A stretch of 53,206 bases of DNA from Oscillatoria sp. PMC 1068.18 (GCA_035968095.1 JAWQFW010000006.1:1-53206); one strand, 5' to 3'. Positions 248 to 52,106 are shown, counted from the stretch's first letter. Notes: generated from the sequence alone by a model not told the origin. Numbers and translations are program-made.

Positions 248-553
248 ATGTCAATAAAGTATCATTTTGACTGGAATCCTGTTAAAGACCAGCAAAATCG
301 ACGTAAACATAATCTCAGTTTTCAACAAGCTGCAACTGTTTTTCGCGACCCATTCCAGTTATCAATTTATGATGAACACCATAGTGAAGATGAAGAGCGT
401 TGGATTACGATAGGATTGGATAACAGGGAAGTTTTGCGGGTTGTGGTACATACCTTTGAGATGTTCGATGAGTCATTTTGTGAAATCCGGATCGTTTCAG
501 CACGTAAAGCCACAACCGAAGAAGCACAAGTCTATTATCAAAGAAGATTATGA
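248..553 (+). CDS. brnT: BrnT family ribonuclease toxin
   Basis: FDWNPVK..N.RKH.LSF..A..VF.DP, HS..EERWITIG and IRIVSARKAT motifs; 101 aa. Confidence 0.9.
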   Translation: MSIKYHFDWNPVKDQQNRRKHNLSFQQAATVFRDPFQLSIYDEHHSEDEERWITIGLDNREVLRVVVHTFEMFDESFCEIRIVSARKATTEEAQVYYQRRL

Positions 554-744
554 AAGCAAATTATGATTTTTCTCAAGGAGAACAGGGAAAGTTTTATCGT
601 TCTGATGCGGTATTTGAGTTTCCTATTTATCTCGAACCTGATGTTAATCAGTTTATGAGAGAATTAGCAAAGACACAAGGAATTGAGGTTGAAATTTTGG
701 TCAATCAGTGGTTAAGAAGTCAGATTGAGCGAGTGCGCTCATAG
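550..744 (+). CDS. BrnA-like antitoxin (RHH/CopG-like C-terminus)
   Basis: ATGA 4-bp overlap with brnT; MK..YDFSQG..GKFY N-terminus; 64 aa. Confidence 0.8.
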   Translation: MKANYDFSQGEQGKFYRSDAVFEFPIYLEPDVNQFMRELAKTQGIEVEILVNQWLRSQIERVRS

Positions 745-781
745 TCAATAATTTGTTGTTTGTTATAGAAGCAAAAGTATT

Positions 782-3298
782 ATGCCAATTGATTTTGATA
801 AATTTACCCCTTCTAAACCCGTAAAAAAATTAATAGATCCTATTGAGATATTTCAGAACCTTAAAGTGAAAGACTCGGCGATTAACGATCTTTGGCTTGC
901 ACAAGGTGATGCTTTGCGAGACTGGCATTCTCAACGAAATTCTGAGGATGTCGCAATTATTTTAAATACTGGTGCTGGTAAAACATTAGTAGGTCTTCTC
1001 GCGGCACAGTCAATTGTTAATGAAACAAACGAGCGTGTTTTATATGCTTGTAGTTCTATTAATCTAGTAGAACAGACAGAGAGTAAAGCAAAGGGATATG
1101 GCTTAGAAATTGCAACGTATATTAAAGGAGAATATCGCAACAAGAGTTTATATCAACGTTGCCTAGCACCATGTGTAACAACTTATCAAGCTATTTTCAA
1201 TGGAAAATCTCGCTTTTTTCGAGAAAAACCTATAGCAATCATCTTTGACGATGCTCATGCAGCCGAGCATTTATTGCGAGATCATTTTACTCTCAAAATT
1301 AAACGGAATAATTTTACTGAACTATTTTCCAAAATTTTTGAGCTTTTCCGTAGCTATCATGAAAAAATAGGTAAGGGAATTAGCTACTCAGAAATTAATC
1401 ATAATAAAGATCGGAACACATATTTTTTTATTCCTCCTTTTTCTCTATATGAAAATTGTAATGAACTAAAGCGAATTCTTGTTGAAGCAAAGCTAAACAA
1501 CGAAATAGATACTATGTTTGCTTGGGAACATCTTAAGGATAAAATTGATTTATGTACTGTCTTTATCTCTGGTAAAGAAATTACAATTACTCCACCAATG
1601 GTACCTGTATCTCATTTCCTTTACTTTCAAAAAGGAATTCGCCGTATATATCTTTCCGCAACTTTATCAGCTAAAGATAAGTTTTTAAGAACCTTTGGAA
1701 AAAATCCTGAAATTATTGCTCCTAAAACTACTGCTGGAGAATGCGAAAGATTAATTATTATACCTTGTTTAAATCAAACATCTAATAGAGAAGATGATCT
1801 CGAAGTTGCCAAAGATATCATTAAAGATAAAAAAGCATTAATTTTAGTTCCTTCTTATCGACGCGCTGAAAAATGGTCAGATATAGCTTCAATAAACTCA
1901 ACTGATGAGGTAACTAAGCAAATTGGTTCTTTTAGGGAATCTCAGTCAACAGATAAACTTGTGCTAGCCAGTCGATATGATGGTATTGATTTACCTGGTG
2001 ATACTTGCCGAGTAATGGTTATTGATGATTTACCATCGAGTCTTAATATTATTGAAAAATATTTTTGGGAACAACTACAATTAGTTAAAAATATGCGCTC
2101 TGCAATTGCATCGAGAGTAGTGCAAGCATTTGGGCGAATTTCACGAGGAATGAGTGATTACGGTGTAGTTATAATTACTGGTGACAAGTTAACAGATTGG
2201 CTATTTGAAAAAGAAAATAAAGCTATTTTACCCTCGTTTTTAAAACAGCAAATTGAGGTAGGAATTGATATATCAGAGCAGGCAGAGTCTCTAAAAGACT
2301 TGATTGATTCTGCTTCCCAATGTTTAGACAGAGATGAAAAATGGGTTAACTATCATCAAAGAAATATTAGTACGAATATGGATAAACAAGATACTAATAT
2401 TGATGAAGATGCTCTGAAAATTGCAGAAGTGGAAGTTAAATTTATAAATGCTTTTTGGAAGCGTGACTATGAACAAGCAGCAAAAGTTTTACATGATTCG
2501 TTAGTAGAAACTTTTGAGTTAAGTAGTCATACTGGTGCATGGCATCACCTTTGGTTAGGTTATTGTTATGAACAAATAAACGATATTGAAAAAGCTTATG
2601 AATCCTATCGAGACGCACATAACACGGTTCCTAATATTCCCCCACCACTACCTAGTCACTATTATTCAGAGAGTGACTTGAGTTTGCCTACACAAGTTCT
2701 AGAAGTATCAAGATATTTAGATACTCGTAGCACTCAGATAAACAAGCAAATCCCTAAAAATTTTGATACTAACTTGGCTGTATTAAATGGGACAGGAACT
2801 TCAGGACAGACAGAAGAAACTTTACGATATTTGGGTCAATATTTGGGTTTTTCATCTAGTAGACCAGATAAGGAATATGGAACAGGTTCCGATGTTTTAT
2901 GGATATCAGAGAACAAAGAAGCTTTATGTTTAGAAGTTAAGACTGATAAAAAAGATGATTCTAAATATAAGAAAGAAGATATTGGTCAATTGAGAGATCA
3001 TATTCAATGGGTTAAAAATAAATATAAATTCAAAATAATTTACCCAGCTTTCGTTGGTTTATTAATTCCTCCATCCTCTTCTGCTAATCCTGACGCTGAA
3101 ATTCAAGTTATTCAATTAGAAGAATTTTACAAAATAGCGGAGCGTTTACGAGCAGCATTAAATGATATTTTAAATAAAAGTATTCCTAGCAATTTACCGC
3201 AGAATATTTTTGAGATATTTGAAGAAAGAAATTTGTTATGGGGTGATTTATACAGGAAAATCCAAAAAACCACTCTTGTTGAATTGAAAAGTAGATAA
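782..3298 (+). CDS. SF2 (DinG/XPD-like) helicase fused to C-terminal PD-(D/E)xK nuclease; Hna-like putative anti-phage protein
   Basis: Walker A LNTGAGKT, motif II IFDDAH, motif III LSAT, YDGIDLPGD, motif VI QAFGRISRG; C-terminal GSDVLW...LEVKT nuclease signature. Confidence 0.75.
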   Translation: MPIDFDKFTPSKPVKKLIDPIEIFQNLKVKDSAINDLWLAQGDALRDWHSQRNSEDVAIILNTGAGKTLVGLLAAQSIVNETNERVLYACSSINLVEQTESKAKGYGLEIATYIKGEYRNKSLYQRCLAPCVTTYQAIFNGKSRFFREKPIAIIFDDAHAAEHLLRDHFTLKIKRNNFTELFSKIFELFRSYHEKIGKGISYSEINHNKDRNTYFFIPPFSLYENCNELKRILVEAKLNNEIDTMFAWEHLKDKIDLCTVFISGKEITITPPMVPVSHFLYFQKGIRRIYLSATLSAKDKFLRTFGKNPEIIAPKTTAGECERLIIIPCLNQTSNREDDLEVAKDIIKDKKALILVPSYRRAEKWSDIASINSTDEVTKQIGSFRESQSTDKLVLASRYDGIDLPGDTCRVMVIDDLPSSLNIIEKYFWEQLQLVKNMRSAIASRVVQAFGRISRGMSDYGVVIITGDKLTDWLFEKENKAILPSFLKQQIEVGIDISEQAESLKDLIDSASQCLDRDEKWVNYHQRNISTNMDKQDTNIDEDALKIAEVEVKFINAFWKRDYEQAAKVLHDSLVETFELSSHTGAWHHLWLGYCYEQINDIEKAYESYRDAHNTVPNIPPPLPSHYYSESDLSLPTQVLEVSRYLDTRSTQINKQIPKNFDTNLAVLNGTGTSGQTEETLRYLGQYLGFSSSRPDKEYGTGSDVLWISENKEALCLEVKTDKKDDSKYKKEDIGQLRDHIQWVKNKYKFKIIYPAFVGLLIPPSSSANPDAEIQVIQLEEFYKIAERLRAALNDILNKSIPSNLPQNIFEIFEERNLLWGDLYRKIQKTTLVELKSR

Positions 3299-4997: not shown

Positions 4998-5960
4998 TTA
5001 TCTTTTTGCAGCGACAATTTCCCGCAAAGTCTGCTCAACACTGCGAGGTTGCCAACCTAAATCTTGACGCGCTTTCGTTGCATCCACACGCACACAGCGA
5101 TCGTAAATATAGTGTACTCTTTCTCGGCTCAAAGGCGGTTGCCAATTTAACAATTTACCAATTGGATCGAGAACATTTCCGACTAATCTAACTATAGCTT
5201 GAGGAGTTTCACCAGGGGCAGGAATTCCCGTTTCTTGACTGAGAAAAGCAAACATTTCTTCGGTAGTTAATTCCCCCGCCGAAATGATATATTTAGCACC
5301 AGGTTCACCTTTTTCTGCTGCTAAAAGCATCGCCATAACCAAATCGTCTACATGAACAATTCCCGTCACGCGAGATCCTCCCGCCCACAATTTTAACCCT
5401 CCCTTCAGAAATTGGTCAATAACCGGACCAAAATGAGGGTCATCTGCACCGAAAATTCCCGACGGTAACACACTCACCACAGGTAAACCTTGCGCGGCAA
5501 ATTCAGCTACTAATTGCTGGGCTGCGTATTTTGTGCGATCGTAAGCAGAAGAAAAGTCTTTTTGTTGTCTAATAAAAGTTTCATCAACAACTTCACCTTT
5601 AGTGTCACCAAATACACCAATCGTACTGCAATAAACCATTTTCTTAATTTTAGCAGCTTGGGCAGTTTCTAATACAGCGCGAGTTCCTTCGACGTTCACT
5701 TTTGCCATTTTCTCGGCATTAACTAAGCCTAATTCCACATAAGCTGCGGTATGAAAAACCCAGTCTACATCTTTCATTCCATCACCTAAAGCTTCTCTGT
5801 CGGTAATGTCACCATAAACTAATTTAATTGGGTAATCACCGAGACGTTCTAAGTTACTTGTTTTGCGAACCAAACCAACAACTTCATGACCTTTTTCTAG
5901 TAATAATTTTACTAAATGAGAGCCTGTAAATCCATTAGCCCCTGTTACAAATGCTTTCAT
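4998..5960 (-). CDS. NAD(P)-dependent epimerase/dehydratase (extended SDR, HpnA/DFR-like); candidate 3-keto-lipid reductase
   Basis: TGANGFTG, VFHTAA, YCST, catalytic YDRTK (YxxxK). The reductase role is inferred from context. Confidence 0.85.
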   Translation of the reverse strand: MKAFVTGANGFTGSHLVKLLLEKGHEVVGLVRKTSNLERLGDYPIKLVYGDITDREALGDGMKDVDWVFHTAAYVELGLVNAEKMAKVNVEGTRAVLETAQAAKIKKMVYCSTIGVFGDTKGEVVDETFIRQQKDFSSAYDRTKYAAQQLVAEFAAQGLPVVSVLPSGIFGADDPHFGPVIDQFLKGGLKLWAGGSRVTGIVHVDDLVMAMLLAAEKGEPGAKYIISAGELTTEEMFAFLSQETGIPAPGETPQAIVRLVGNVLDPIGKLLNWQPPLSRERVHYIYDRCVRVDATKARQDLGWQPRSVEQTLREIVAAKR

Positions 5961-6087
5961 AATATTTTTTGATATTTAATAGTTAAAAATTGGTAATTCA
6001 AGACTGAGCAATTGGGAATTTAGAAATTTATAATTGGCGAAAAAATTATGATTATATGAAATGGAAAATAAAATGCTAGGTCTGCTA

Positions 6088-6117
6088 TGTAGAGACTTTT
6101 GAGGCAACTTCTGTACA
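6088..6117. repeat. Degenerate copy of GTAGAGAC..GTCTCTAC REP-like palindromic repeat
   Basis: tgtagagacttttgaggcaacttctgtaca; resembles the perfect copy at 49373-49398. Confidence 0.55.
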
Positions 6118-6332
6118 AAATAATGATGTATAGCAAACATTTGTGTATTTCATATTATCTAGATTTAGCTAATAGTTACTTTCAAATTTATGCGAGCTTT
6201 ATAGTTACCATTTCCTAATTACTAATTCACAGTTTACAGTCCCCTTAATTGGAAATTTATTAACTTATAATTGGCGAGAAAGTTATCAGTTATTTAGAGT
6301 TGGTTAATAGTTATCTTCAACTTGATTCGAGT

Positions 6333-6448
6333 TTCCCAATTCCCAATCCCCAATCACCAATTCCCAATCCCCAATCACCAATTCCCAATCCCCAATCCTC
6401 CAATTCCGCCAATTCCCCCAATTCCCCTAATTCCTAATCCCTAACCCC
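6333..6448. repeat. STRR-type heptamer tandem repeat (CCCAATC/CCAATTC variants)
   Basis: Direct reading: ttcccaattcccaatccccaatcaccaa... ; overlaps the stop codon of 6434-7582. Confidence 0.9.
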
Positions 6449-7582
6449 TATTTTCTTCTCATAAATACGGTAAGTTTTGTCCAATTTTCCGCCCGATGCT
6501 TCAATTAAACGACGCGAAGGTAAATTACTTTCAAAAACGTGACCCAATTCCGCATATTTGTAGGGTTTACCTTTTTTAGTTGCTCCTTGAAGTCCTAAAT
6601 AAATTAACGCTAAAGGAACCATTTTGCGCCGATATTCTGGTAGAGAACAAATAATTACGACTCTCCCTCGGTCAATTTGTCGCCGATACCAGAGAAACTT
6701 CAGTTTTCCCCAGAAATTTAGTTTGCCGTTAAGATATTTTAGGGGAATATTATAATCAGGTAAACCCATAAAAAAGCCAATCATTTCACCATTATCTTCA
6801 GCGATATAAAAAGCATCTGCATCGACTAAAGTTTGTAACGATTTTGCTTCTTCAAGAAACTCCTCTTCGGTACGAGGAGTGGAACTATAGTTGTTAGCAA
6901 AACACTTATTAAAAAGCCGATAAAGCCGCAGCGCATCTGCCTCGAAAGCTTTACCTTTGAGATTAATTTGGCGAAAACTGATTCCCGATTTCCAAGCAAT
7001 GCGATAAGCTTTCGAGAACTTTTCTGGTAATGGTTGATCTAAAGGAAATTTATACGCATAAGCATCTTCTGCCTTTTCCCATCCTAATTGTTCCATAAAT
7101 TGAGGATAATAAGCAGGATTATAAGGCATCATTACCATTGGTGGTTCATCAAAGCCATCGACCAAAAATAAACATTTATTGTGAGTAGAAAGATCGATGG
7201 GTCCGCGAACCAGTGTCATTCCTTGTGCTTTTAACCAGTCACAAGCAGCAGCAATCAGGGCTTGGGCTATTTCCAAGTTTTCAATACATTCAAAAAAGCC
7301 AAATAAACCTACATTTTGACCTTCTTTTTCCACTAAACGTTGATTAACCGCAGCGACAATTCTCCCTACCGGAATTGAATCTTTGAGGGCAAGAAACTGC
7401 TGTAGTTGACCATATTTGAAGAAAGGATTGCTGGGTGCAAATTGCTTGGCGATTTCGCTACGCAAGGGGGCTACCCAGTGGGGGTCGTCGCGGTAAACAA
7501 GGGCTGGTACATCCAGAAACTTTGCCAAATCTTCTGGAGTAATAACAGCCCGAATTTCCAAATTTTCTGTTGACTTAGACAC
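6434..7582 (-). CDS. GNAT-fold N-acyltransferase, YghO/bacterial ceramide synthase (bCerS)-like
   Basis: Y.DDP.WVAPL, NPFF, FLA...PVGRI.A, G.FGFFE, WL...G...VRGP, GFD.PP.VMMPYN..YY, C-terminal E.N...K.YRIY motifs; GTG start 4 bp after the AOS gene stop. Confidence 0.75.
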   Translation of the reverse strand: MSKSTENLEIRAVITPEDLAKFLDVPALVYRDDPHWVAPLRSEIAKQFAPSNPFFKYGQLQQFLALKDSIPVGRIVAAVNQRLVEKEGQNVGLFGFFECIENLEIAQALIAAACDWLKAQGMTLVRGPIDLSTHNKCLFLVDGFDEPPMVMMPYNPAYYPQFMEQLGWEKAEDAYAYKFPLDQPLPEKFSKAYRIAWKSGISFRQINLKGKAFEADALRLYRLFNKCFANNYSSTPRTEEEFLEEAKSLQTLVDADAFYIAEDNGEMIGFFMGLPDYNIPLKYLNGKLNFWGKLKFLWYRRQIDRGRVVIICSLPEYRRKMVPLALIYLGLQGATKKGKPYKYAELGHVFESNLPSRRLIEASGGKLDKTYRIYEKKIGVRD

Positions 7583-7586
7583 TTAT

Positions 7587-8867
7587 TTATGCACTAATTG
7601 TGGGTCGATAAAGTAAGTCTCGCGTTGCTACTAAAGCAGCAATTAAACGATCCATTTCTTCTTGAGTATGGAGCGAATTTACAGTAATGCGGAGACGAGG
7701 TTTGGCGATAAACCAAATTGGTGAAATCCAAATCCCGTGGCTTTCCATCATCTCGCGAGCAAAGATTTTCGGATTAATTTCTGGTGGTAAAATGATTGGA
7801 ACAACATTAGTTTCACCGATCGCGGAAAAACCTGTTTCTGCGAGACGAGTTCGCAGGTAACGAGTATTAGCTTGCAACTTCTGCACCAATTCAGGAAATT
7901 GACGCACTTGACGAATACTCTCCAAAGCCGCAGCCGTATTTGGTGCTGGTAAAGAAATTGTCCCAATAGAAGTAGGAGAAACGTTCAACAAAGGTTTAAA
8001 TTCAGCGACATGAGTGCTGATGGCGGCTCCAGCCGAAGCTGCAAATTTAGAGAAAGTGGTTAAAATCAAGGGAACGATACCACGCGCGATCGCCTCTTGG
8101 GGTAAAATCCCGAAATGTTCGTAAATTCCCCTTCCCGTTGCACCAATCGCACCGCTAGCGTGAGCTTCGTCCATTAATAACACGCTACCAGGATAATTTT
8201 CCAGTACGTCTAACATTTCTGGGAGAGGAGCAATATCTCCGTCCATCGAGAAGACTGCATCAGAAACTACCAGAATTCGGTCATCAGGACGAGCATATCG
8301 CTTTAATTTCCGAGCTAAATCCTCCACGTTGCAGTGACGATAAGCTTTGACTCGTACTTGGGGACTATGACCAAATACTTTACCAGAACGAGTCCCCGCA
8401 TTAACTACCGCCGAGACGATACAACCGTGGTTGAGAACATCGGTCATAATTAAAGTCTCTCTGGTATGCTGAAACCCTGGAACCGGAATTGCCAGATGAC
8501 AAAAAGCATCTACTAAAGCCTGCATCGCCATCCAAGCGTTGAGAAACAGTTGGGTGTGGGGTAGATGCTTAAACTGAGAAATTTCCTCTTCTAGTTGACG
8601 GTGTAAGTCAATGCGACCGCTCAAAACCGAGCAGGAACTATTTGACGTACCATATTGCATAATTGAATCTATGGCTGCTTGTTTGACTCGTTCTGATTGA
8701 GTCAAACCTAAAACGTCGTTAGTGCAGAAAGTTAGCACTTTTTGACGTTTGCCAGTATTTTGCGCTTCAATTTCAACTAGATTACCTTGTTTGGCATGAC
8801 AAATAAATTCATCTGGATCTAGCCCGCTTTCGTACCAGCGCTGAACGTACTCTTTCACAACTTGCAC
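7587..8867 (-). CDS. PLP-dependent alpha-oxoamine synthase (SPT/BioF/Kbl family), serine-palmitoyltransferase-like
   Basis: D.LNH, YRHCN, SDAVFSMDGD, DEAHASG, PLP lysine in TTFSK, RLRITV; GTG start with GAGGAG SD. Confidence 0.85.
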   Translation of the reverse strand: MQVVKEYVQRWYESGLDPDEFICHAKQGNLVEIEAQNTGKRQKVLTFCTNDVLGLTQSERVKQAAIDSIMQYGTSNSSCSVLSGRIDLHRQLEEEISQFKHLPHTQLFLNAWMAMQALVDAFCHLAIPVPGFQHTRETLIMTDVLNHGCIVSAVVNAGTRSGKVFGHSPQVRVKAYRHCNVEDLARKLKRYARPDDRILVVSDAVFSMDGDIAPLPEMLDVLENYPGSVLLMDEAHASGAIGATGRGIYEHFGILPQEAIARGIVPLILTTFSKFAASAGAAISTHVAEFKPLLNVSPTSIGTISLPAPNTAAALESIRQVRQFPELVQKLQANTRYLRTRLAETGFSAIGETNVVPIILPPEINPKIFAREMMESHGIWISPIWFIAKPRLRITVNSLHTQEEMDRLIAALVATRDLLYRPTISA

Positions 8868-9097: not shown

Positions 9098-10219
9098 TTA
9101 ACCGGAATTTTGGCTGACTTCCTCGACGCGATTGTTCTCCAAACTAGCTACTTTTTGGGTTGTGGATGCAGAATTTTGCTGAAATTGTTCATATTGACGC
9201 AGGATCAAGCGTTGGACGGCGATAATTGCGGGGTTAATTTCCACGTAGCGTCGTTGAGGGTTTTTGAGATAGGTTTGTTGTTCGCTTTCGACCATTTCGA
9301 TATCTTGGGCGAGAAATTTGAGTAAGACGAAGCGGGGTAACAAGAATTGTAGCGCAGGTTGGAGAGGGCGCAGTAGCCATTGGGGAAGACGAACTTTGAA
9401 GAAAAAGTAGGCAAAAGAACGGCTTTCGGTGGGGGAGATGGGCAAACGCATGAGGTATAAGGTGGAAACACCTTGGAGAGAGGTGTAGTAGTGGGGGTAG
9501 CGATATTGAATTGAGATTGGTAGAGTAGTTGTCTGGTCGGCGCGATCGCTTAATCCTAAAAATTTTGCCATTCGACCTCGATAGGATACGTTATATTCGG
9601 CACAAACACTGTTTTCGGTTTCTTTTAAATTTGTCAACACGGGGTCAAACCATCCTTGCAACCCCCGATGTAGGTAGCCGTGGAAAACGTCCATCGTGTT
9701 CTCGTTACACATGGAAAAATGCGCCTGGAAATGGGCGGAAACCGGAACCATTAACCACTCGTTTTGTTGGTCGAATTCTTTTATTTCTGGCGGTTGCTGG
9801 GTTGTAGCTAAGGAAATCTCGCCGGGAAATACCCAAATTAGGTTATATTTTTCTTGGACGGGATAACTCCGCACTGTCGCGCGAGGTAGCTTTTGCTCTT
9901 TTGGTAAATAAGGAATTTTCACGCATTCGCCACTACCGTTGAATTCCCAGCCATGATAAGCACAAGCAAGATTACAGCCAGTAACATTTCCTTTGTGTAA
10001 GGCAACACCACGATGGGGACATACGTCTGCTAAAGCATGAAGTTTACCCAACTCGTCCCGAAAAATTGCGAGATTTTCTTCCCAAATTGTGACAGCCAGA
10101 ATTTTTTCTGGCTGAAGTTGATTTGCCCAAGCTACGGGATACCAGTAATTTGGGTTAATGCCGACTTCTCTGACTTGGTTGCGGACTATTTGGCTGGTTA
10201 AGGCTGTCTGTAGTTTCAT
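9098..10219 (-). CDS. Rieske [2Fe-2S] non-heme iron oxygenase alpha subunit
   Basis: WYPV, CPHRG...CAYHGWEF Rieske ligands, ENTMDVFHGYLH mononuclear Fe motif, C-terminal QD. Confidence 0.92.
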   Translation of the reverse strand: MKLQTALTSQIVRNQVREVGINPNYWYPVAWANQLQPEKILAVTIWEENLAIFRDELGKLHALADVCPHRGVALHKGNVTGCNLACAYHGWEFNGSGECVKIPYLPKEQKLPRATVRSYPVQEKYNLIWVFPGEISLATTQQPPEIKEFDQQNEWLMVPVSAHFQAHFSMCNENTMDVFHGYLHRGLQGWFDPVLTNLKETENSVCAEYNVSYRGRMAKFLGLSDRADQTTTLPISIQYRYPHYYTSLQGVSTLYLMRLPISPTESRSFAYFFFKVRLPQWLLRPLQPALQFLLPRFVLLKFLAQDIEMVESEQQTYLKNPQRRYVEINPAIIAVQRLILRQYEQFQQNSASTTQKVASLENNRVEEVSQNSG

Positions 10220-10377: not shown

Positions 10378-11532
10378 ATGTTTCGAGATCCGAAAATTTT
10401 AGTTTTACTTGCTGTAGGTTCCCTGACGACAATGGCGGGTGGAGTGGTTTCTCCTGTATTGCCAGAAATAATCGAACAGTTACAATTAGATCCGGCTTTG
10501 GCTGGTAATTTAGTTAGTCTACATTGCTTGACAATTGCGCTGTTCAGCCCTTTGTTAGGGATTTTGGCAGATCGAATTGGCAGATTGCAAATCTTGATTC
10601 CTTGTTTGGTTGGTTACGCTATTTTTGGTACGGCTGGGGCTTTTCTTGACGATCTTGCGCCGTTGTTGGTTAGTCGTGGTTTGTTGGGGGCTGCGAGTGG
10701 GGGTATTGCGGCGGCGAGTTTAGGTTTGTTAGGTAGTATGTATGAAGGGGAGGCGCGATCGCAAGCCTTGGGTTATGCTACTAGCACTTTAACTCTGACT
10801 GGGATTGCTTTTCCGCTTCTGGGTGGCTGGGTAGGTTCGTTTGATTGGCATTATGCTTTTTATCTTTACGGAATTGCGTTTCCTCTGGCTTTAATCGTGA
10901 TTTTAACTTTTGGGAAGCGATCGCCCCGAAAACCCAAAACTAAGGTCAAGCCAGATTCTTTCAAACTCAGTACCGTTTTAGCTAACCCAGAAACTCTGCG
11001 ACTGTTATTAACCCTCTCTCTAGCTTCAATTGCGATGTATGCTGTGGTTATTTACGCCCCTATCTACCTCAAACAAACAATTGGGGCTGGAAGTACCCTG
11101 AATGGGATTGTACTGGCTAGCAGAGCCGTAGGAGCAGCGATTATTTCCGCTTTTGGGGCGAAACCCCTCGCGAAAAAAATTGGTGGGGCTGGCGCGATCG
11201 CGTTTGGCTTTGGTTTAATGGCACTAACTTTAATAACAATTCCGGTATTATCTCAACTCAGTTTAATTCTCGTCACCGCCGTCTTTTTTGGCGTAGGATT
11301 TGGCTTAGTTTTACCGAATTTATATAACAGTTTAGCCAATCTTGCCCCCGCAGAATTACGTTCCAGCGTCCTCGCAGCCGGGACTGGCGCAGGATTTTTA
11401 GGTCAATTTATTTCGCCATTACTGTTAGGAATTATTTTAGGTATTAGTGGCTTAGAAACGGTTTTCTATGTCGCCGCAATCGTCGCCATGACTGCCGGAT
11501 TTTTGTTGTTTGTCCCTCGCTTTGAAACTTAG
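10378..11532 (+). CDS. MFS transporter (DHA1-like efflux)
   Basis: Motif A G.LADRIGR, about 12 hydrophobic segments, P.LGG. Confidence 0.9.
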   Translation: MFRDPKILVLLAVGSLTTMAGGVVSPVLPEIIEQLQLDPALAGNLVSLHCLTIALFSPLLGILADRIGRLQILIPCLVGYAIFGTAGAFLDDLAPLLVSRGLLGAASGGIAAASLGLLGSMYEGEARSQALGYATSTLTLTGIAFPLLGGWVGSFDWHYAFYLYGIAFPLALIVILTFGKRSPRKPKTKVKPDSFKLSTVLANPETLRLLLTLSLASIAMYAVVIYAPIYLKQTIGAGSTLNGIVLASRAVGAAIISAFGAKPLAKKIGGAGAIAFGFGLMALTLITIPVLSQLSLILVTAVFFGVGFGLVLPNLYNSLANLAPAELRSSVLAAGTGAGFLGQFISPLLLGIILGISGLETVFYVAAIVAMTAGFLLFVPRFET

Positions 11533-11780: not shown

Positions 11781-12140
11781 CTATAACGGAATATGGGTAA
11801 TCCGATTTTGATAATCGCTTTCGTCACCAGCTTCAGCAATGAAAACAAGATTGTTAATAATTTCTCCGATTGTAAATTTTTTACGCAGGACGAATATACC
11901 AGGACTTTGATGATTTTGTTCTAAATGTTCGGTGAGATGAACGGGCATGGAACGTCGATTATTTGTCAGCAGAATAAAGTTATTTTGTTCGCACCAAAGT
12001 AAAATTTCTGGGTCTAGTGTTCCTTTAGCTGGAGCATCAGGATCGCCTACCATCAAAACAGTTGTTTGAGGAAGATAGCGCCTTAATTGTTCTTGATAAA
12101 GTGGAGGTAAATTTTCATCAATAAGGTATTGAATACTCAT
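11781..12140 (-). CDS. DUF5615 family PIN-like toxin (VapC45-like)
   Basis: YLIDENL, D.EIL.W, ILLTNN, H...H..PGI motifs; 4-bp overlap with the DUF433 gene. Confidence 0.8.
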   Translation of the reverse strand: MSIQYLIDENLPPLYQEQLRRYLPQTTVLMVGDPDAPAKGTLDPEILLWCEQNNFILLTNNRRSMPVHLTEHLEQNHQSPGIFVLRKKFTIGEIINNLVFIAEAGDESDYQNRITHIPL

Positions 12141-12475
12141 AAAATCTTTTCTCGTTCGGCTTTGAGTTGACGCAGGCGAAGAATATATTCAGGTGGGTTT
12201 TCATTTTGCTGTTTTTCTGATTCTTGACAATAGTTTAACCAGTCGGTCATGTATTGAGTAACTTCTTCTTGGTTATGTAAAAAGTAGAGAATAGTCGCAT
12301 AGATTTGTTCTAAAGTTAAATTACTATAAAGGTTAGCAATTGTTTCGGCGGATTGATGACGATAGATATATTCGTATAAGATGGTTTCTATGCCTACTCT
12401 TGTACCTTTGAGTCGAATGTCATAGGAAGTAAGAAATTCAAAGTAATCTTTTAGTTGCATGGTTGATGACTCCAA
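12137..12475 (-). CDS. DUF433 domain antitoxin (VapB45-like)
   Basis: IRLKGTRVGIETIL...LTLEQIYATILY. Confidence 0.85.
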   Translation of the reverse strand: MESSTMQLKDYFEFLTSYDIRLKGTRVGIETILYEYIYRHQSAETIANLYSNLTLEQIYATILYFLHNQEEVTQYMTDWLNYCQESEKQQNENPPEYILRLRQLKAEREKIL

Positions 12476-12476
12476 G

Positions 12477-12758
12477 TTAAGTAATAGTTAGTAGTTGTGC
12501 GTGAGTTTGACGATCTGCGATAAAATCTGCTTCGTTGTAAGCTAAATCGACACCTTTGGCTTGAAGAAAAGCATCAACTTCTAAACGAGTAGACATTCCT
12601 AATAATTCTTTGACTTTACCGACACTGATCGAACCTTCTCGGTAAGCTTCTACGACAACAATTTCTAGTAACCTACGTTCTAAGCTACCCCATTTAGTTT
12701 CTAGTACCTCGGCGATTTCTTCTGGTAAGGCAATTTGAATTTTCATCAATTTTTGCAC
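12477..12758 (-). CDS. UPF0175 family protein (putative antitoxin)
   Basis: AYREGSISVGK..ELLGM.TR.EV..FL...GV.L.Y...D...D; the true start may be the internal ATG (MKIQI). Confidence 0.8.
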   Translation of the reverse strand: MQKLMKIQIALPEEIAEVLETKWGSLERRLLEIVVVEAYREGSISVGKVKELLGMSTRLEVDAFLQAKGVDLAYNEADFIADRQTHAQLLTIT

Positions 12759-13021: not shown

Positions 13022-14410
13022 TTACACGACAGCAGTAGCTAACTTTTCCGGTAAAGATTGACGCAAACGAGATCCATACAACGCTAAAGAGTTACCACCC
13101 AACAACAAACCTAAATGCTCTTTGTCGTAGTCGGCAACATTCGCAGCATCTTTGACACAATTTTCCAAGACACCATCCCAATGTCCGTAGTCACCAGAGA
13201 AACAAGCGACACGCTTCCCAACTTCACCCATCGCTACGGGAAGATATGCGGGGGCGGGGTCATCTGACTCAAAGGAGGTAAAGATTTGTCCGCGTTCAAA
13301 ATACTCCATTGGGTCGCGGTGACGCAAGTCGTAATGTTCGTACAAACTTGCATCATCAATTTTAGTAGGATCGTGGCTAGCGTTCCATAATAAATCGAAG
13401 AGGTTTTTCGCTTTACTAATAATATTGATGTTGTCTTTACCGCCTTTTTCTTGAATCATCAATTTGGTAAATTCCATCAAGGAAGGGCGATAAGGGTTTT
13501 TCGGGTCGAAGTCGCGAATGCGCTTTTCCCAGTGTTCGTGGAAGGCGTGGGCGAGGTCTGGTAGCCAGCCGCAACCGCCTTCTAAGAAGCCGACTCTGAG
13601 GGTGGGAAATTGCTCGAATGCGCCGTCAAAGACCATTCTCGCTAAGGCGTGTTGTTGTTGGTTACGCTGCACGAAAATGTGGGTTAAGACGAAGGTTTCC
13701 ATGTGGTCGGAAATACCACCCATCATGCTAGAACCGGGTCCGCCGTGAATGCCTAAACCGATGTTTAAATCGACTGCGGCTTGTAAGATGGGGCGGAAGT
13801 CGGGGTGGGAAATTGCTTTACAGGTGCGAATTTCGGGGAAAGCGTCGGGGGCTTTGGGATGGGGAACTGGTAAGTTGGGGGCGACAGCGACGCTGATTAA
13901 ACCGAGTTCGTTGACGCAGCGATACATTTCGGCGACAGCCGCATCTACGTCTTGGAGAGGAATTACGCCGATGGGTTTGAGACGGTTGTCGTAGCCTTTG
14001 CAGTCGTCAGCGATATAGTTGTTGTAAGCTTGGCAAAGGGCGATCGCGAAATCTTTGTCTAAAATACTGGAAAAAATTAGGTTCAGCGTTCCGTAGATAA
14101 CTTGGATATCAACGCCTTCTTGCTCCATGTGTTCCAAGCGTACTCGATTAAACATTGCGCCGAGGGTGGTTTCCGGATGTAGGGTACGAAAGCCGCCTTT
14201 TCCTAAACCTTGAGGTTGGGGAAACATTCGCTTGAAGTCGTTTTTCCCGGTATTAGGGTTAAAATCAATTAGTTGCGCCCGTTGATCTCCGAGACTGTCG
14301 ATGACTAAACCAATCCGGTCTTGATATGCTGAATCGAGATAGTCACGTAAAATCAAGGGATTTTCGAGTTTGTGTGCGTCAGCGTCGATGACAATTAAAC
14401 CTTCGTACAT
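13022..14410 (-). CDS. Amidohydrolase_2 family metallo-hydrolase/decarboxylase
   Basis: IDADAH, EGVD.QVIY, AYN.Y, IHGG, F..FP.LRVGFLEGGCGW, SGDYGHWD motifs. Confidence 0.85.
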   Translation of the reverse strand: MYEGLIVIDADAHKLENPLILRDYLDSAYQDRIGLVIDSLGDQRAQLIDFNPNTGKNDFKRMFPQPQGLGKGGFRTLHPETTLGAMFNRVRLEHMEQEGVDIQVIYGTLNLIFSSILDKDFAIALCQAYNNYIADDCKGYDNRLKPIGVIPLQDVDAAVAEMYRCVNELGLISVAVAPNLPVPHPKAPDAFPEIRTCKAISHPDFRPILQAAVDLNIGLGIHGGPGSSMMGGISDHMETFVLTHIFVQRNQQQHALARMVFDGAFEQFPTLRVGFLEGGCGWLPDLAHAFHEHWEKRIRDFDPKNPYRPSLMEFTKLMIQEKGGKDNINIISKAKNLFDLLWNASHDPTKIDDASLYEHYDLRHRDPMEYFERGQIFTSFESDDPAPAYLPVAMGEVGKRVACFSGDYGHWDGVLENCVKDAANVADYDKEHLGLLLGGNSLALYGSRLRQSLPEKLATAVV

Positions 14411-14469: not shown

Positions 14470-14778
14470 TTAGTTACTGGTTTGTTGACGAAAAATTTGG
14501 CGTAAACCAAACCAATTGTCAAAAGACCAAGACATCGAAGCGAGAATCACGATACCGGGATATTTTCTAAAGGCTGGTTCGTTTTTCTCGAAAAAGATGT
14601 GTCCGCTAAGGGCGAATACTTGCGTCAAGACGACGCAAATCGCTGTTAAACGCCAATCGATGAATAAACAGATTACCGCCGCGATCGCCACCAGATTCGT
14701 GAGGTGGTGTAAAATTTGGTTGATTGGATGCTGGTGAGAAGCGATAAAATGGGCTTTTGCTTCCTGAAAATAACTCAA
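14470..14778 (-). CDS. Mpo1-like / DUF962 membrane protein
   Basis: H.HPIN..LH and GH.FFEKNEPA motifs; TTG start with AGGAG SD. Confidence 0.8.
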   Translation of the reverse strand: MSYFQEAKAHFIASHQHPINQILHHLTNLVAIAAVICLFIDWRLTAICVVLTQVFALSGHIFFEKNEPAFRKYPGIVILASMSWSFDNWFGLRQIFRQQTSN

Positions 14779-14949: not shown

Positions 14950-15432
14950 TTACCACCACTTCAGTTGCAAGTAACCAAGTTGATTTGCTCTCAATTCCTC
15001 GTCAGTCAACCATTCCACTGATTTATATGTCCCGAAAATTCGATCCCACCAATCGACCGCTAAACCGAAATTATGATGCCACATATTATATTTGTGATGA
15101 ACATAATGTACAGGCATTTTCATCCAAAAACATTTGGTCGGATTTTCGTGTTGTAGCTGATGAGCATAAGCCGAAAAAGCGGCATAAACTAAACAACCTG
15201 AACACCAACCTAATCCTACATCCCAAGCGAAGAAGAACGGCAAACCGATTGCGATAATACTACCTCGAACATAATCGCGGAACTCCCAGAACACGCCTTG
15301 TCCTTCATTGCGACGGTGATGATCTCGATGACGTTCCCCGACACGAGGATTATAGTGCATTAAACGATGAATCCAGTATTCGACAAAACTCGCCAAAATA
15401 AAAGCTAAGATAAAAAACGCGATCGCTCTCAT
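14950..15432 (-). CDS. Fatty acid hydroxylase/sterol desaturase superfamily di-iron enzyme
   Basis: His boxes HRLMH, HRDHH, H..QH, HYVHH; NFG...WWDRIFGT. Confidence 0.88.
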   Translation of the reverse strand: MRAIAFFILAFILASFVEYWIHRLMHYNPRVGERHRDHHRRNEGQGVFWEFRDYVRGSIIAIGLPFFFAWDVGLGWCSGCLVYAAFSAYAHQLQHENPTKCFWMKMPVHYVHHKYNMWHHNFGLAVDWWDRIFGTYKSVEWLTDEELRANQLGYLQLKWW

Positions 15433-15603: not shown

Positions 15604-17292
15604 ATGACCAACTTATTTTTCTCACTATTGACTTCTTTTAGCGAACGTGCTAAAGATAATTTCCTCAAGAAACTTAATCAGACTCCGACAATTCAAGAAA
15701 AGTTCCTTCTCCAACTCTTACAAGCCCATAAAAACACCGAATTAGGTCAGAAATATCAACTCCAAGACATTAAAACTATCGATCAATTTCGAGAACAAAT
15801 CCCAGTTCTACCCTACGCTAATTACGAACCTTATATCAACCGCATTGCCCAAGGCGCAAAAAACGTTTTAACCCCCGATCCTGTAGTTTACTTAAACATG
15901 ACCAGTGGGTCAACCGGAAACCCCAAACTAATTCCCGTAACCAAACGCTTTCAAAACACATTAGGAAAAGCCAACTTTATCAGCATTGGCTTCCTCTCCC
16001 AAGCCCTCCGTTCTCACGGCTCACAGTTTGGTAAACTTCTTGCCACCAACTCACCCAAACTCTACGGAACCACCGATGCAGGAATTCCCTACGGACCAGC
16101 AAGCACAGGAGTTTTACGCATGGGAAAATGGGTTTATGGACAACTATTTGCCATGCCCTACGAAACCCTCAAAGTTGATGAATTAGTCGCTCGTCATTAT
16201 GTAGCTTTACTCTTTGCTTTACAAGACACCAACCTGCGGGGAATTGGGCAAAACTTCCCCATGTTATTACTACGTTTAGCTAACTATTTAGAAACTTACT
16301 CTGAAGAACTAATTCATAATCTAGAAACAGGAACTATTGCTAACTGGCTACAAATAGAACCCGAACTCAGAACCAAACTAGAAAATATTTTTCACGCTAC
16401 ACCCCAACGCGCCCAAGAATTAAAAGAAATCCTCCATTCCGAAGGAAAATTAACTCCCAAACTCGCCTGGAAAAACCTCTCATTTTTAGTTAGCGCGAGA
16501 GGAGGAACATCAGACTTTTACTTCCAACGTTTTCCAGAATACTTTGGCGATACACCTGGGTTTGGTGCTGTTTATTCTTCCTCAGAAGGTACATTCAGCA
16601 TCAACCATAGCCTCAATGTAGACAGTAGCATTTTAGCAATTGAAAGTGGCTTTTTTGAATTTGTCCCTCAAGATCAATGGTCAGCAGAACATCCCAAAAC
16701 ATTACTTGCAACCGAAGTAAAACCAGGGCGATTATATCGAATTTTAACCACAAATTATAGCGGTTTTTATCGTTATGATATTGGCGATGTAGTTGAAGTA
16801 GTTGGTTTTCACGAACAAACCCCATTATTAGTCTTTCGCTTCCGTCAAGGTGGGATAATTTCTGCGACAACCGAGAAAACAACCGAGTTTCAAGTCACGA
16901 AAGTAATGGAAGCTTTGCAACAAGAATTTAACGTAGCTTTAGAAGATTTTTGTATTACTTTATCCGCAGGTGAATTTCCCGCACGTTATTTAGTTAATAT
17001 AGAATTAGCTAAGGGTCAAAATTTACCAGATTTACCCGGCTTTTTAGCAAGTTTCGATAACAAGCTAAAAGAGGCTAATAGCTATTATGAACTCAAACGA
17101 CGCGACCAAATACAACCTCCTCGCTTGCGTCTGCTTCAACCTGGTAGTTTCGGTATTATCCGTCAGCGTCAATTAGACAAAGGAATGCCTGATTTTCAGC
17201 TTAAGTTTCCCCATACCAGCGAAGATCGAAATTTCTTAGCTGGTTTAGAAATAGAAAAGGAGGTTAGTAGCGAAGAATTGAGTCTCACCTAA
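15604..17292 (+). CDS. GH3 family acyl-acid amido synthetase (adenylate-forming)
   Basis: TSGSTG.PKLIP, YSSSEG, FFEF.P, YRYDIGDVV. Confidence 0.9.
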   Translation: MTNLFFSLLTSFSERAKDNFLKKLNQTPTIQEKFLLQLLQAHKNTELGQKYQLQDIKTIDQFREQIPVLPYANYEPYINRIAQGAKNVLTPDPVVYLNMTSGSTGNPKLIPVTKRFQNTLGKANFISIGFLSQALRSHGSQFGKLLATNSPKLYGTTDAGIPYGPASTGVLRMGKWVYGQLFAMPYETLKVDELVARHYVALLFALQDTNLRGIGQNFPMLLLRLANYLETYSEELIHNLETGTIANWLQIEPELRTKLENIFHATPQRAQELKEILHSEGKLTPKLAWKNLSFLVSARGGTSDFYFQRFPEYFGDTPGFGAVYSSSEGTFSINHSLNVDSSILAIESGFFEFVPQDQWSAEHPKTLLATEVKPGRLYRILTTNYSGFYRYDIGDVVEVVGFHEQTPLLVFRFRQGGIISATTEKTTEFQVTKVMEALQQEFNVALEDFCITLSAGEFPARYLVNIELAKGQNLPDLPGFLASFDNKLKEANSYYELKRRDQIQPPRLRLLQPGSFGIIRQRQLDKGMPDFQLKFPHTSEDRNFLAGLEIEKEVSSEELSLT

Positions 17293-27700: not shown

Positions 27701-28448
27701 AATTCTGTACTGCACCATCTAAGTTAATTAGTTCAATAAAATCCTGACGCTTACTTTTATTAACGTAAAGTTGTTCTTCCACATTGGTACATTCTGCAAG
27801 TAAAGTTTTTGGTGAGTCGTATCCATACATTTTAGCTAAAGCAGGATTAGCACTTAAATAGCGCCCCTCCGGTGTGGTTTGAAAAATTCCACTAACGGCA
27901 TTTTCAAAGATACTTCGATATTTAGCTTCTGTTTGTTGTAGCGCTATTTCTACCTGGGATCGCTCGTGGATTTGGTCTTCTAATTGATTATTTAAATTTT
28001 TAACTTCTGCTTCGGCTTGCTTACGGGCTTTGTTTTCTTCAGTTAAGGTTTGATTTGCTATTTCTATTGCTTCTAAACTTGGTAAAATTAGTGCTTGAAG
28101 CATTAATTTCCCTACTTTCAGTGCTGTATAAATCGAGATCATTGCCGTGATTGCTTTGAAGCTACCAGAAAGCCAATAAATCGGAAACCATAAAGTCACA
28201 ATTTCCATCAAATAAGTTGTTCCGCAAGCGAGCAGGAAAACTCCAAAGAAGATCAAGATGTCCAGGAAAGGGAGATCTCGTCTTTTTCGCTGAAAAAATA
28301 ATAAAAGTGAGGCAATTGAATAGTAAGCAACCGCGATCGCTAAATCTGAAACTATGTGCAATAACACTAAGTTAGGACTCCACGCAGAACATTCTCCATT
28401 AAGCAGGAAATAGCGGCTACCTAAGATGTTTAGCAATAAATCTTGCAT
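24708..28448 (-). CDS. Hybrid sensor histidine kinase: ethylene-receptor-like TM domain, 2x PAS, GAF, HisKA, HATPase, 2x REC, Hpt
   Basis: [12 protein letters not shown]...LACGTT; [14 protein letters not shown]; GGTGLGL; DLQMP and DIQMP receivers; AHTLKSSS Hpt. Confidence 0.92.
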
Positions 28449-45154: not shown

Positions 45155-45167
45155 TTAAGAAACTTTT

Positions 45168-45195
45168 GTAGAGACATTATAAATAACGTCTCTAC
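45168..45195. repeat. REP-like palindromic repeat copy between convergent genes
   Basis: gtagagacattataaataacgtctctac. Confidence 0.75.
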
Positions 45196-45206
45196 CTTAA
45201 TCAAAT

Positions 45207-46244: not shown

Positions 46245-46448
46245 CTTTTACTCCTCACCACTAATTTTTGCTAATTTACGACAAAACTAAGCTTCTTACT
46301 TCCAACCCCTGAAAATTATTTTTCTCTTCCGCTAGAATAGCTAGCCACCTTTTTTACGAAAATTTAGAAATTGTCATCATCAAGTATAGCATAATTATTA
46401 GAACCACAAAAGTATTCTCAACTTTTGTAGGATTAGTGGTGTGAGTTG

Positions 46449-47717: not shown

Positions 47718-47732
47718 GTTAAATTAGCATTT

Positions 47733-49328: not shown

Positions 49329-49372
49329 ATTTAATATTATTTGCATAAAGTAATACTACAGATGCAGACCTT

Positions 49373-49398
49373 TAGAGACGTTGCATGCAACGTCTCTA
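49373..49398. repeat. Perfect 26-bp palindrome, reference copy of the REP-like family
   Basis: TAGAGACGTTGCA|TGCAACGTCTCTA. Confidence 0.85.
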
Positions 49399-49414
49399 CA
49401 CAATTTCAGATAGC

Positions 49415-51738: not shown

Positions 51739-52106
51739 TGTGGCTCGAATGAGTATAATTTACAAATCTAGTTAATTTTGGGATGGGGGAGAGATTTTTT
51801 TTTATTCAGTGAGTTTGTTATTTTTTGAGTTGATCGGCGATCGCTAATTTGGGTTTTCTAGTTCTTTGTCTATGCTAGAGGCGGTGTTGATAGCTGGTTG
51901 CTAGTTGCTAGAGAAAATTTTGTTGGTGATGTTAATTAATTAAAGAGAAAATTAAGCCGCTTGTATTTTACAATCTCGATCAGGATCTAGCCTACTACCA
52001 CGAATTTGAAATTGTTGATCACAGGATTTGCTATTTGTCAAGGAATGGGTGTAAATATTGAGATTGTGTTTGCTAATCAGCAGCTTGACCCGATCGAGGG
52101 ACTGAT

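What the first reader, a model, noticed from the sequence alone, without database searches (positions are those of the whole stretch)
4998..8867. Candidate cyanobacterial ceramide/sphingolipid-like core: SPT-like synthase, bCerS-like acyltransferase, SDR reductase
Seen: three co-oriented genes encode an alpha-oxoamine synthase (DEAH, FSMDGD, TFSK), a YghO-type GNAT starting 4 bp after it, and an extended SDR. Established: bacterial ceramide synthesis, as defined in Caulobacter, uses Spt (serine + acyl-thioester), the GNAT bCerS (N-acylation) and an SDR-type reductase CerR. Cyanobacterial membranes are classically described as glycerolipids (MGDG/DGDG/SQDG/PG) and sphingolipids are not a recognised component. 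Inference: this locus makes a ceramide-like or other N-acyl amino-alcohol lipid. To my knowledge no such pathway has been characterised in cyanobacteria.
Basis: partly seen in the sequence, partly recalled or inferred. Interest (0 to 1): 0.9.

Follow-up and report, generated by a model that had tools for sequence, protein, structure and literature searches.

The report
Cyanobacterial ceramide-like lipid gene set
Three neighbouring genes that are inherited together in a subset of cyanobacteria, along with several lipid-oxidising and amide-forming partner genes, likely build a ceramide-like lipid by a divergent version of the bacterial sphingolipid pathway, which would give cyanobacteria a lipid class whose genes have not been identified.

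Summary
The three genes are real, with their motifs and the 4-base gap; the reductase starts 473 bases further on. They form one inherited unit: all three occur in the same 27 of 401 genomes of the phylum. Six more window genes (fatty-acid hydroxylase, MFS, GH3, Rieske, amidohydrolase-fold protein, Mpo1-like) occur in 19-25 of the other 26 and in 0 of 20 control genomes. The acyltransferase is a full-length YghO/bCerS homologue (31%). The synthase is not BioF, which lies elsewhere in this genome, but not a canonical Spt either: it scores far below three Spt models, forms its own mainly cyanobacterial clade and has Cys at the amino-acid gatekeeper. The reductase is only 21% identical to E. coli's CerR homologue. 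Best reading (0.62): a divergent ceramide-type pathway making a hydroxylated N-acyl amino-alcohol lipid; amino acid and product unproven. Main rival (0.22): an exported small amide metabolite. My ten literature searches found no characterisation; two cyanobacterial ceramides are reported without genes. The scan noted this triad before on other genomes.

The parts
7587..8867 (-). alpha-oxoamine synthase (426 aa) of a separate, mainly cyanobacterial subfamily; predicted to condense an acyl thioester with a small amino acid
   Evidence: PF00155; below all AOS family cut-offs; H147, D233, H236, K274 invariant and R393 nearly so; model pLDDT 95 with AOS fold, Z 48; own clade
6434..7582 (-). bCerS/YghO-family acyltransferase (382 aa), predicted N-acyltransferase
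   Evidence: 31% over full length to E. coli BL21 YghO; 30-36% to Sphingomonas, Roseomonas, Diaphorobacter and actinobacterial homologues; same 27 genomes as the synthase
4998..5960 (-). extended SDR (320 aa), predicted 3-keto reductase
   Evidence: TGxxGFxG, S112, Y140, K144 kept; 21% to E. coli epi/CerR homologue; best NCBIfam HpnA, below cut-off; same 27 genomes
6335..6441 (.). heptamer tandem repeat array in the 473-base spacer between GNAT and SDR
   Evidence: 14 copies of period 7; sequence
9098..10219 (-). Rieske non-heme iron oxygenase (373 aa), accessory tailoring enzyme, same strand directly upstream of the synthase
   Evidence: PF00355 + PF19112; best NCBIfam SdmA 242 of 600 bits; in 63 of 80 loci; 19 of 26 triad genomes, 0 of 20 controls
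10378..11532 (+). MFS transporter (384 aa), candidate exporter or flippase
   Evidence: PF07690; 43 of 80 loci; 24 of 26 versus 0 of 20
13022..14410 (-). amidohydrolase_2-fold protein (462 aa) with a near-match to the motif of amidohydrolase-related dinuclear oxygenases
   Evidence: PF04909; D11-x-H13, H222, E277, D407-Y-G-H-W-D412 invariant in 10 sequences; PDB hits DitZ, ACMSD, PtmU3; 20 of 401 genomes, all among the 27
14470..14778 (-). Mpo1-like small membrane protein (102 aa; Pfam name: 2-hydroxy-palmitic acid dioxygenase)
   Evidence: PF06127; 19 of 26 versus 0 of 20, the same 19 genomes as the amidohydrolase-fold gene
14950..15432 (-). fatty acid hydroxylase superfamily protein (160 aa), near-core member
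   Evidence: PF04116; 38 of 80 loci; 25 of 26 versus 0 of 20
15604..17292 (+). GH3-family acyl-acid amido synthetase (562 aa), predicted ATP-dependent amide former
   Evidence: PF03321/PF23571/PF23572; weak OlsH hit, 76 of 620 bits; 29 of 80 loci; 22 of 26 versus 0 of 20

Best explanation
The three genes are an inherited unit that likely makes a ceramide-type lipid: the PLP enzyme is predicted to join a long-chain acyl thioester to a small amino acid with loss of CO2, the bCerS-family protein is predicted to add a second fatty chain to the amine, and the SDR is predicted to reduce the 3-keto group to an alcohol. Shown: gene order, co-inheritance, folds, catalytic residues and bCerS homology. 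Inferred: every chemical step. The acyl donor is probably housekeeping acyl-ACP, since no dedicated carrier or ligase was recognised in the loci. Serine is the likeliest single amino acid, but I give it under even odds; alanine or glycine (1-deoxy types) come next. The co-inherited fatty-acid hydroxylase would hydroxylate the lipid, the Rieske enzyme or the amidohydrolase-fold/Mpo1-like pair would oxidise it further, GH3 would attach an amino compound to a carboxylate, and the MFS protein would move the product.
For: Same 27 of 401 genomes for all three genes; synthase and GNAT adjacent in 21 of those 27 and all three contiguous in 11 (coordinates in those calls); triad in 34 of 52 loci with at least 5 kb downstream; five loci lacking the GNAT within the DNA fetched all had it elsewhere in the genome. 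Full-length homology to YghO, the homologue of Caulobacter CC_1154 named in PMC9386255; closer to YghO (31%) than the Bacteroides homologue is (27%). The same order, synthase-GNAT-SDR, occurs in Rubrobacter, Streptomyces and (synthase in pieces) Nonomuraea records. Catalytic residues of synthase and SDR kept. Recurring neighbours are lipid enzymes: PF04116 hydroxylase, Mpo1-like, and in relatives an OlsC/LpxO-like hydroxylase (21 of 80 loci), desaturase (18), cyclopropane synthase-like (14), JmjC (11), B12 radical SAM (26), DevA/DevC-like ABC genes (17, 16). Separate BioF over the cut-off here and in 5 of 5 other triad genomes tested. Two ceramides reported from cyanobacteria without genes (PMC8895605).
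Against: The synthase fails all three Spt models by a wide margin and scores lower on them (118-166 bits) than the actinobacterial triad enzymes do (268-444). It groups outside the Spt set (quick tree only). Gatekeeper position 79 is Cys in 36 of 55 clade members and Ser in 5; a V79C variant of ThAOS was inactive in that scaffold (PMC11906848). G-Y/F-x-x-N is replaced by A-W-M-A-M and the C-terminal substrate loop is four residues shorter. The SDR is only 21% and 25% identical to the E. coli and Sphingomonas CerR homologues. YghO-like proteins also occur with no synthase nearby in non-photosynthetic members of the phylum and in Rhizobium, so the family alone does not prove ceramide. No head-group transferase recurs in the loci. 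No lipid data exist for any carrier that I could find, and I could not link the two reported ceramide producers to these genes.
Confidence: 0.62

Rival explanations
1. The cluster makes an exported small metabolite or signal (a short or medium-chain N-acyl aminoketone or amino alcohol, oxidised and conjugated by GH3), not a membrane lipid.
For: MFS gene in 24 of 26 triad genomes; GH3, Rieske and a possible dinuclear oxygenase are typical tailoring enzymes; the synthase pocket is remodelled; patchy distribution, 27 of 401.
Against: No polyketide or peptide assembly gene, carrier protein or regulator was recognised among recurring neighbours; recurring extras are membrane-lipid enzymes; the genes stay together in genomes where they are scattered; the acyltransferase family's only characterised role that I found is ceramide synthesis.
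Confidence: 0.22
2. Two pathways sit side by side: the Rieske enzyme and the SDR act as an SdmA/SdmB-like oxidative demethylation pair on a cyclic lipid, and the synthase with the GNAT makes only an unreduced N-acyl aminoketone.
For: Best NCBIfam hit of the Rieske protein is SdmA and second-best hit of the SDR is SdmB; the SDR is nearer HpnA-type proteins than CerR homologues.
Against: Both hits are far below cut-off (242 and 147 of 600). The SDR follows the synthase and GNAT in all 27 genomes, whereas the Rieske gene was not found in 7 of 26; where the cluster splits, the SDR stays next to the GNAT in 3 of the 6 split genomes and the Rieske gene stays with the synthase.
Confidence: 0.07
3. 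The synthase is a housekeeping enzyme (second BioF or Kbl) and the neighbours are incidental.
For: Its highest NCBIfam score is bioF (231 bits); JGI names many relatives glycine C-acetyltransferase.
Against: Score is far under the cut-off of 426; a true BioF exists on contig C58 and in 5 of 5 other triad genomes; it does not group with BioF or Kbl; it is not found in 374 of 401 genomes; strict co-inheritance with GNAT and SDR.
Confidence: 0.03

Closest known systems
Bacterial ceramide pathway Spt - bCerS (CC_1154/YghO) - CerR (CC_1164/epi) with AcpR and AasR (Caulobacter crescentus, E. coli BL21; PMC9386255, PMC11087976, PMC11324152)
   Same: An alpha-oxoamine synthase, a full-length bCerS homologue and an extended SDR with intact catalytic residues; a hydroxylase as partner (Caulobacter uses the DesA-family CC_0202).
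   Different: Synthase outside the Spt models and clade, with Cys79 and a remodelled pocket; SDR only 21-25% identical to CerR homologues; no dedicated ACP, acyl-ACP ligase, Lpt transport or head-group genes recognised; GH3, Rieske, amidohydrolase-fold and Mpo1-like partners instead.
Actinobacterial synthase-GNAT-SDR operons (Rubrobacter radiotolerans and Streptomyces plasmid records)
   Same: Same three-gene order; their GNATs are the best named non-cyanobacterial matches of the window GNAT (34-36%).
   Different: Their synthases group with Spt and score 268-444 bits on Spt models; the cyanobacterial enzyme does not. I did not find these two loci characterised.
PfSgaABC polyketide-linked sphingolipid route of Pseudomonas fluorescens MYb115 (PMC12134224)
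   Same: Shows that an alpha-oxoamine synthase in a non-canonical gene setting can have serine palmitoyltransferase activity and make sphinganines.
   Different: Uses a PKS and a KDSR-like SDR; no PKS lies in this cluster; sequence not compared here.
Ornithine and other amino lipids (OlsH GH3 synthetase, OlsC and OlsE hydroxylases; PMC12493201, PMC12971839)
   Same: GH3-type amide formation, LpxO/OlsC-like and fatty-acyl-hydroxylase-type tailoring genes recur in the cluster.
   Different: All hits are below family cut-offs; those pathways have no oxoamine synthase or bCerS.
Cyanobacterial BioF (Npun_R3567; PMC8895605)
   Same: Same PLP fold.
   Different: This genome's BioF is a different gene (contig C58, 31% identical); the paper's negative result concerns BioF and a strain with no other such enzyme.

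Membership tests
Serine palmitoyltransferase (Spt) | alpha-oxoamine synthase fold with PLP-binding His, Asp, His, Lys and carboxylate-binding Arg | tested here: met
   H147, D233, H236, K274, R393; Z 48.1, rmsd 1.8, 378 aligned to 3a2b, with Kbl (47.4) within 1 Z and ALAS at 46.9
Serine palmitoyltransferase (Spt) | score above a curated Spt model | tested here: not met
   165.6/640, 164.3/500, 118/670; controls E. coli BL21 and Sphingomonas Spt pass theirs
Serine palmitoyltransferase (Spt) | groups with known Spt in a tree | tested here: not met
   15-row clade at SH-aLRT 100, apart from the branch holding three Spt and two actinobacterial enzymes; quick tree, midpoint root, long branch, no topology test
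Serine palmitoyltransferase (Spt) | Ser at the amino-acid gatekeeper (Ser102 of S. paucimobilis Spt, Val79 of ThAOS) | tested here: not met
   Cys79; Cys 36, Thr 9, Ser 5, Ala 5 of 55; role of the site from PMC11906848
Serine palmitoyltransferase (Spt) | forms 3-ketosphinganine from L-serine and a long acyl thioester | not testable with these tools
   needs enzyme assay
BioF | score above TIGR00858 and grouping with BioF | tested here: not met
   230.8/426.45; separate BioF at 459.8; apart in tree
bCerS/YghO | full-length homology to YghO-type proteins of sphingolipid loci | tested here: met
   31%, E 5e-56 over 378 columns; conserved blocks
bCerS/YghO | genomic link to an oxoamine synthase | tested here: met
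   same 27 of 401 genomes, adjacent in 21
bCerS/YghO | nests inside the group of Spt-linked bCerS proteins | tested here: inconclusive
   cyanobacterial clade 100/100 lies between the Spt-linked group (84/94) and homologues without a synthase; root unsupported
bCerS/YghO | direct comparison with Caulobacter bCerS, the characterised member | not tested
   no tool gave that sequence; E. coli BL21 YghO and the Sphingomonas homologue stood in
bCerS/YghO | N-acylates a long-chain base | not testable with these tools
   needs assay or complementation
CerR | extended SDR with nucleotide-binding motif and Ser-Tyr-Lys triad | tested here: met
CerR | orthology to epi/CerR | tested here: inconclusive
   21% (E. 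coli) and 25% (Sphingomonas), with an insertion they lack; HpnA is the best model for both the window SDR and the E. coli homologue; no SDR tree was built
Proteobacterial ceramide locus | dedicated AcpR and AasR genes near spt | tested here: not met
   none recognised among ORF clusters recurring in 4 or more of 80 loci (only 10 clusters were scanned against Pfam); no hit to E. coli AcpR or AasR in 3 of 3 further cyanobacterial loci
Amidohydrolase-related dinuclear oxygenase (ARO), gene 13022-14410 | N-terminal D-x-H | tested here: met
   D11-A12-H13 invariant; definition in PMC13154177
Amidohydrolase-related dinuclear oxygenase (ARO), gene 13022-14410 | C-terminal D-x-P-H-x-D/E | tested here: not met
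   D407-Y-G-H-W-D412: the three ligand positions match, Pro is Gly in 10 of 10 sequences
SdmA/SdmB sterol demethylase pair | scores above the models and joint inheritance | tested here: not met
   242/600 and 147/600; Rieske not found in 7 of 26 genomes that have the SDR

The most novel reading that the evidence does not exclude
Cyanobacteria have their own sphingolipid-like class: a separate synthase lineage uses an amino acid other than serine, the bCerS homologue and a non-orthologous reductase finish a deoxy-ceramide-like core, a Rieske or dinuclear oxygenase then oxidises it to a carboxylate and GH3 caps it with an amino compound, giving a phosphorus-free and sugar-free head group by chemistry not known in any sphingolipid pathway. 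Each of the 26 other triad genomes carries the Rieske gene (7), the amidohydrolase-fold/Mpo1-like pair (7) or both (12), none neither.
Probability: 0.15. Interest if true: 0.9.

Novelty: new variant of a known kind. Interest (0 to 1): 0.68.

Why it matters
Cyanobacterial membranes are described as glycerolipids, and the one genetic study I found (PMC8895605) ended with a negative result on BioF and called for tests of other oxoamine synthases in cyanobacteria. This set supplies a concrete candidate pathway, present in compact form in many named genera (Symploca, Rivularia, Calothrix, Richelia, Leptolyngbya, Chroococcidiopsis), so the open question can be tested with three knockouts and one enzyme assay. 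A synthase lineage with a remodelled pocket may widen the substrate range known for the family, and a patchy lipid could serve as a biomarker. Screens that require an Spt-clade protein would miss it.

Tried and rejected
BioF or Kbl identity: rejected. Fold comparison did not discriminate substrate: Spt, Kbl and ALAS structures score within about 1 Z. No solved structure of a bCerS relative by sequence. No viral relative of the synthase in one scan of IMG/VR. Promoter and terminator scan gave 7 and 2 sites, fewer than shuffles (10.9 and 5.3), so uninformative. Sequencing runs: no RNA holder listed. The model of the amidohydrolase-fold protein had mean pLDDT 45.7 and was not used. The careful synthase tree did not finish and a topology test could not be run because the script machine was lost. 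The protein atlas did not answer. Whether Moorea/Moorena or Scytonema carry the genes is open: neither name appears among the named rows of the best 120 hits of a Symploca query, but most rows are unnamed. A fetch meant for E. coli bioF landed on another region and was not used; loci were not used. The second fused synthase of this genome is not tied to the triad: 4 of 26 versus 1 of 20. No complex prediction was run.
Full report
Observation. The three ORFs, their strand, the motifs and the 4-base gap are as described. The SDR begins 473 bases after the GNAT stop; the spacer holds a heptamer repeat. The genome has 5.54 Mb in 481 contigs and is 99.9% complete; the 80 closest synthase loci are titled as cyanobacteria or as unclassified bacteria.

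One inherited unit. In 401 genomes drawn from the phylum, the synthase (E <= 1e-90), the SDR (E <= 1e-70) and the close GNAT (59% identity or more) occur in exactly the same 27 genomes, from 22 genera; 11 further genomes of other classes have only distant GNATs at 28-32%. From the coordinates in those calls, synthase and GNAT are adjacent in 21 of 27, and all three are contiguous in 11. Among 80 loci fetched around the synthase (the best 80 of 307), the GNAT follows in 39 of 59 with 3 kb downstream and the full triad in 34 of 52 with 5 kb. Five loci lacking the GNAT within the DNA fetched (one of them cut short) all had it elsewhere in the genome. Kin are not independent, so these are tallies, not statistics.

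The unit is larger than three genes. In the 26 other triad genomes versus 20 triad-free genomes of the same order (the first 20 listed), matches were: fatty-acid hydroxylase 25 versus 0, MFS 24 versus 0, GH3 22 versus 0, Rieske 19 versus 0, Mpo1-like 19 versus 0. The amidohydrolase-fold gene was found in 20 of 401, all among the 27, and in the same 19 as the Mpo1-like gene. The 7 genomes without the Rieske match all have that pair, and the 7 without the pair all have the Rieske gene. In relatives the loci add a B12 radical SAM gene (26 of 80), an OlsC/LpxO-like hydroxylase (21), a desaturase (18), DevA/DevC-like ABC genes (17, 16), a cyclopropane synthase-like gene (14) and a JmjC gene (11); many of these loci are from related Rivularia and Calothrix genomes. 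No carrier protein, acyl ligase, PKS or glycosyltransferase was recognised among recurring ORFs.

The synthase. It has the oxoamine synthase fold (model pLDDT 95.2; Z 48.1 to Sphingobacterium Spt, 47.4 to Kbl, 46.9 to ALAS) and the catalytic residues. It passes no family cut-off: bioF 231/426, Spt 166/640, 164/500, 118/670, whereas E. coli BL21 and Sphingomonas Spt pass theirs. This genome has a separate BioF, as do 5 of 5 other triad genomes. In a quick 62-row tree it sits in a 15-row clade (SH-aLRT 100) apart from Spt, BioF, Kbl and HemA references (the careful search did not finish, the root is a midpoint, CapB and CqsA were not included as named references, and the Parabacteroides row was labelled Spt by me without a model test). 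Named members are mostly cyanobacterial, with a few outliers such as Shimia abyssi. The pocket differs: position 79, which aligns with ThAOS Val79 and Sphingomonas Ser102, is Cys in 36 of 55 members, Thr 9, Ser 5, Ala 5; W112 is invariant where 41 of 47 other enzymes have Tyr or Phe; the Asn at 115 (44 of 47 others) is hydrophobic; W385 replaces Arg378. PMC11906848 (passages read) names position 79 a determinant of amino-acid choice and found V79C inactive in ThAOS. Arg378 is not universal: the biochemically tested E. coli BL21 Spt lacks it too. So the reaction type is secure and the substrates are not.

The acyltransferase. It aligns end to end with E. coli BL21 YghO (31%), which PMC9386255 (passages) lists as the homologue of Caulobacter CC_1154, the N-acyltransferase needed for dihydroceramide (PMC11324152, passages; PMC11087976, passages). 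In a careful 23-row tree the seven cyanobacterial proteins form a clade (100/100) between the group of proteobacterial, actinobacterial, Bacteroides and Chloroflexota proteins (84/94) and homologues whose loci show no synthase. It is in the family; specificity is not proven.

The reductase. It keeps the nucleotide-binding motif and S112, Y140, K144 but is 21% and 25% identical to the E. coli and Sphingomonas CerR homologues; its best model is HpnA (206/368) and its best PDB match an uncharacterised oxidoreductase, 3wj7. It may be a non-orthologous stand-in. Its strict link to the other two genes is the argument for its role.

Mechanism. Likely: acyl-ACP plus a small amino acid gives a 3-keto long-chain base; N-acylation; reduction; then hydroxylation, further oxidation, GH3-dependent amide formation and export. 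That cyanobacteria use acyl-ACP as general acyl donor is recalled knowledge, in line with a passage on cyanobacterial acyl-ACP synthetase in PMC9386255. The amidohydrolase-fold protein has D-x-H and D-Y-G-H-W-D, one residue off the motif that PMC13154177 (passages) gives for dinuclear oxygenases; its PDB hits include DitZ and PtmU3 but also the decarboxylase ACMSD at similar scores, so oxygenase is a lead only. GH3 and hydroxylase precedents in amino lipids come from PMC12493201 and PMC12971839 (passages). Confidence 0.62; within it serine is the likeliest amino acid but under even odds. Rivals: exported small metabolite 0.22, SdmAB-like side pathway 0.07, housekeeping enzyme 0.03.

What is known. 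PMC8895605 (parts 1, 3, 4 and 5 of 8 read) reports ceramides from Scytonema julianum and Moorea producens without genes, finds none in Nostoc punctiforme, shows its only oxoamine synthase is BioF-like, and points to a 571-aa Moorea protein, which is not of this length. Reports from non-axenic material could derive from associated bacteria; PMC13028669 (passages) isolates Sphingomonadales from cyanobacterial cultures. PMC11334938 (passages) defines producers by an Spt-like clade and mentions cyanobacteria only in its references. Ten searches returned no study of this gene set; the library lacks most subscription papers, the defining 2022 paper was not seen, and supplements that could list cyanobacterial homologues were closed. 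Two untargeted lipidomics papers on Arthrospira and Nostoc flagelliforme appeared in a listing only. Earlier notes of this scan describe the same triad on other genomes; they are leads, and the tallies above are my own.

Verdict. Real, conserved, co-inherited, apparently uncharacterised; works like the bacterial ceramide pathway but only the acyltransferase passes membership tests. New variant of a known kind, interest 0.68.

Noticed in passing
G000 contig C170 (L113:66-11779): A second candidate sphingoid-type cluster in the same genome: inositol-1-phosphate synthase, fatty acyl-AMP ligase, a ligase-ACP-oxoamine synthase fusion (1078 aa), classical SDR, LicD, Stealth, GT4, CarS-like and a DAGK-family kinase. 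No N-acyltransferase seen there; the window's bCerS homologue might serve both. Its synthase domain matched 4 of 26 triad and 1 of 20 control genomes.
   Followed up: partly
window 11781-12758: Three small genes (DUF5615, a 112-aa ORF without Pfam hit, UPF0175) interrupt the cluster between the MFS and amidohydrolase-fold genes; they look like a toxin-antitoxin-type insertion (recalled label) and do not recur in the related loci.
   Followed up: no
L096-L101 (G043, G061, G010, G004, G079): Non-photosynthetic members of the phylum carry YghO-like proteins at 28-32% identity with no oxoamine synthase in the 10-14 kb fetched; one lies beside an acyl-AMP ligase-like gene. The family may make other amide lipids.
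   Followed up: partly
L087:7698-11065, L088:7760-11042, L109:4319-8227: Rubrobacter, Streptomyces and Nonomuraea records have the same synthase-GNAT-SDR order; in Nonomuraea the synthase matches lie in two pieces in different frames on the opposite strand.
   Followed up: partly
L011, L014, L016, L023, L030 and other Rivularia/Calothrix loci: An expanded cluster with JmjC, OlsC-like hydroxylase, cyclopropane synthase-like, desaturase and B12 radical SAM genes between GH3 and the Rieske gene suggests a more heavily modified product in this lineage.
   Followed up: partly
window 24708-28448: Hybrid histidine kinase with an ethylene-receptor-like N-terminal domain (PF25487), PAS, GAF, receiver and Hpt domains.
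   Followed up: no
window 35029-41286: 2085-aa protein with DUF4347, three malectin domains, TIG and a sugar-dehydrogenase-like region.
   Followed up: no
window 248-3298: BrnT-family toxin gene followed by an 838-aa DEAD/ResIII-type helicase in lower-GC DNA, possibly a defence island.
   Followed up: no
window 44174-53132: Polysaccharide block: three GT2 genes, a flippase-like gene, a PMT_2 protein and a GH5 protein.
   Followed up: no
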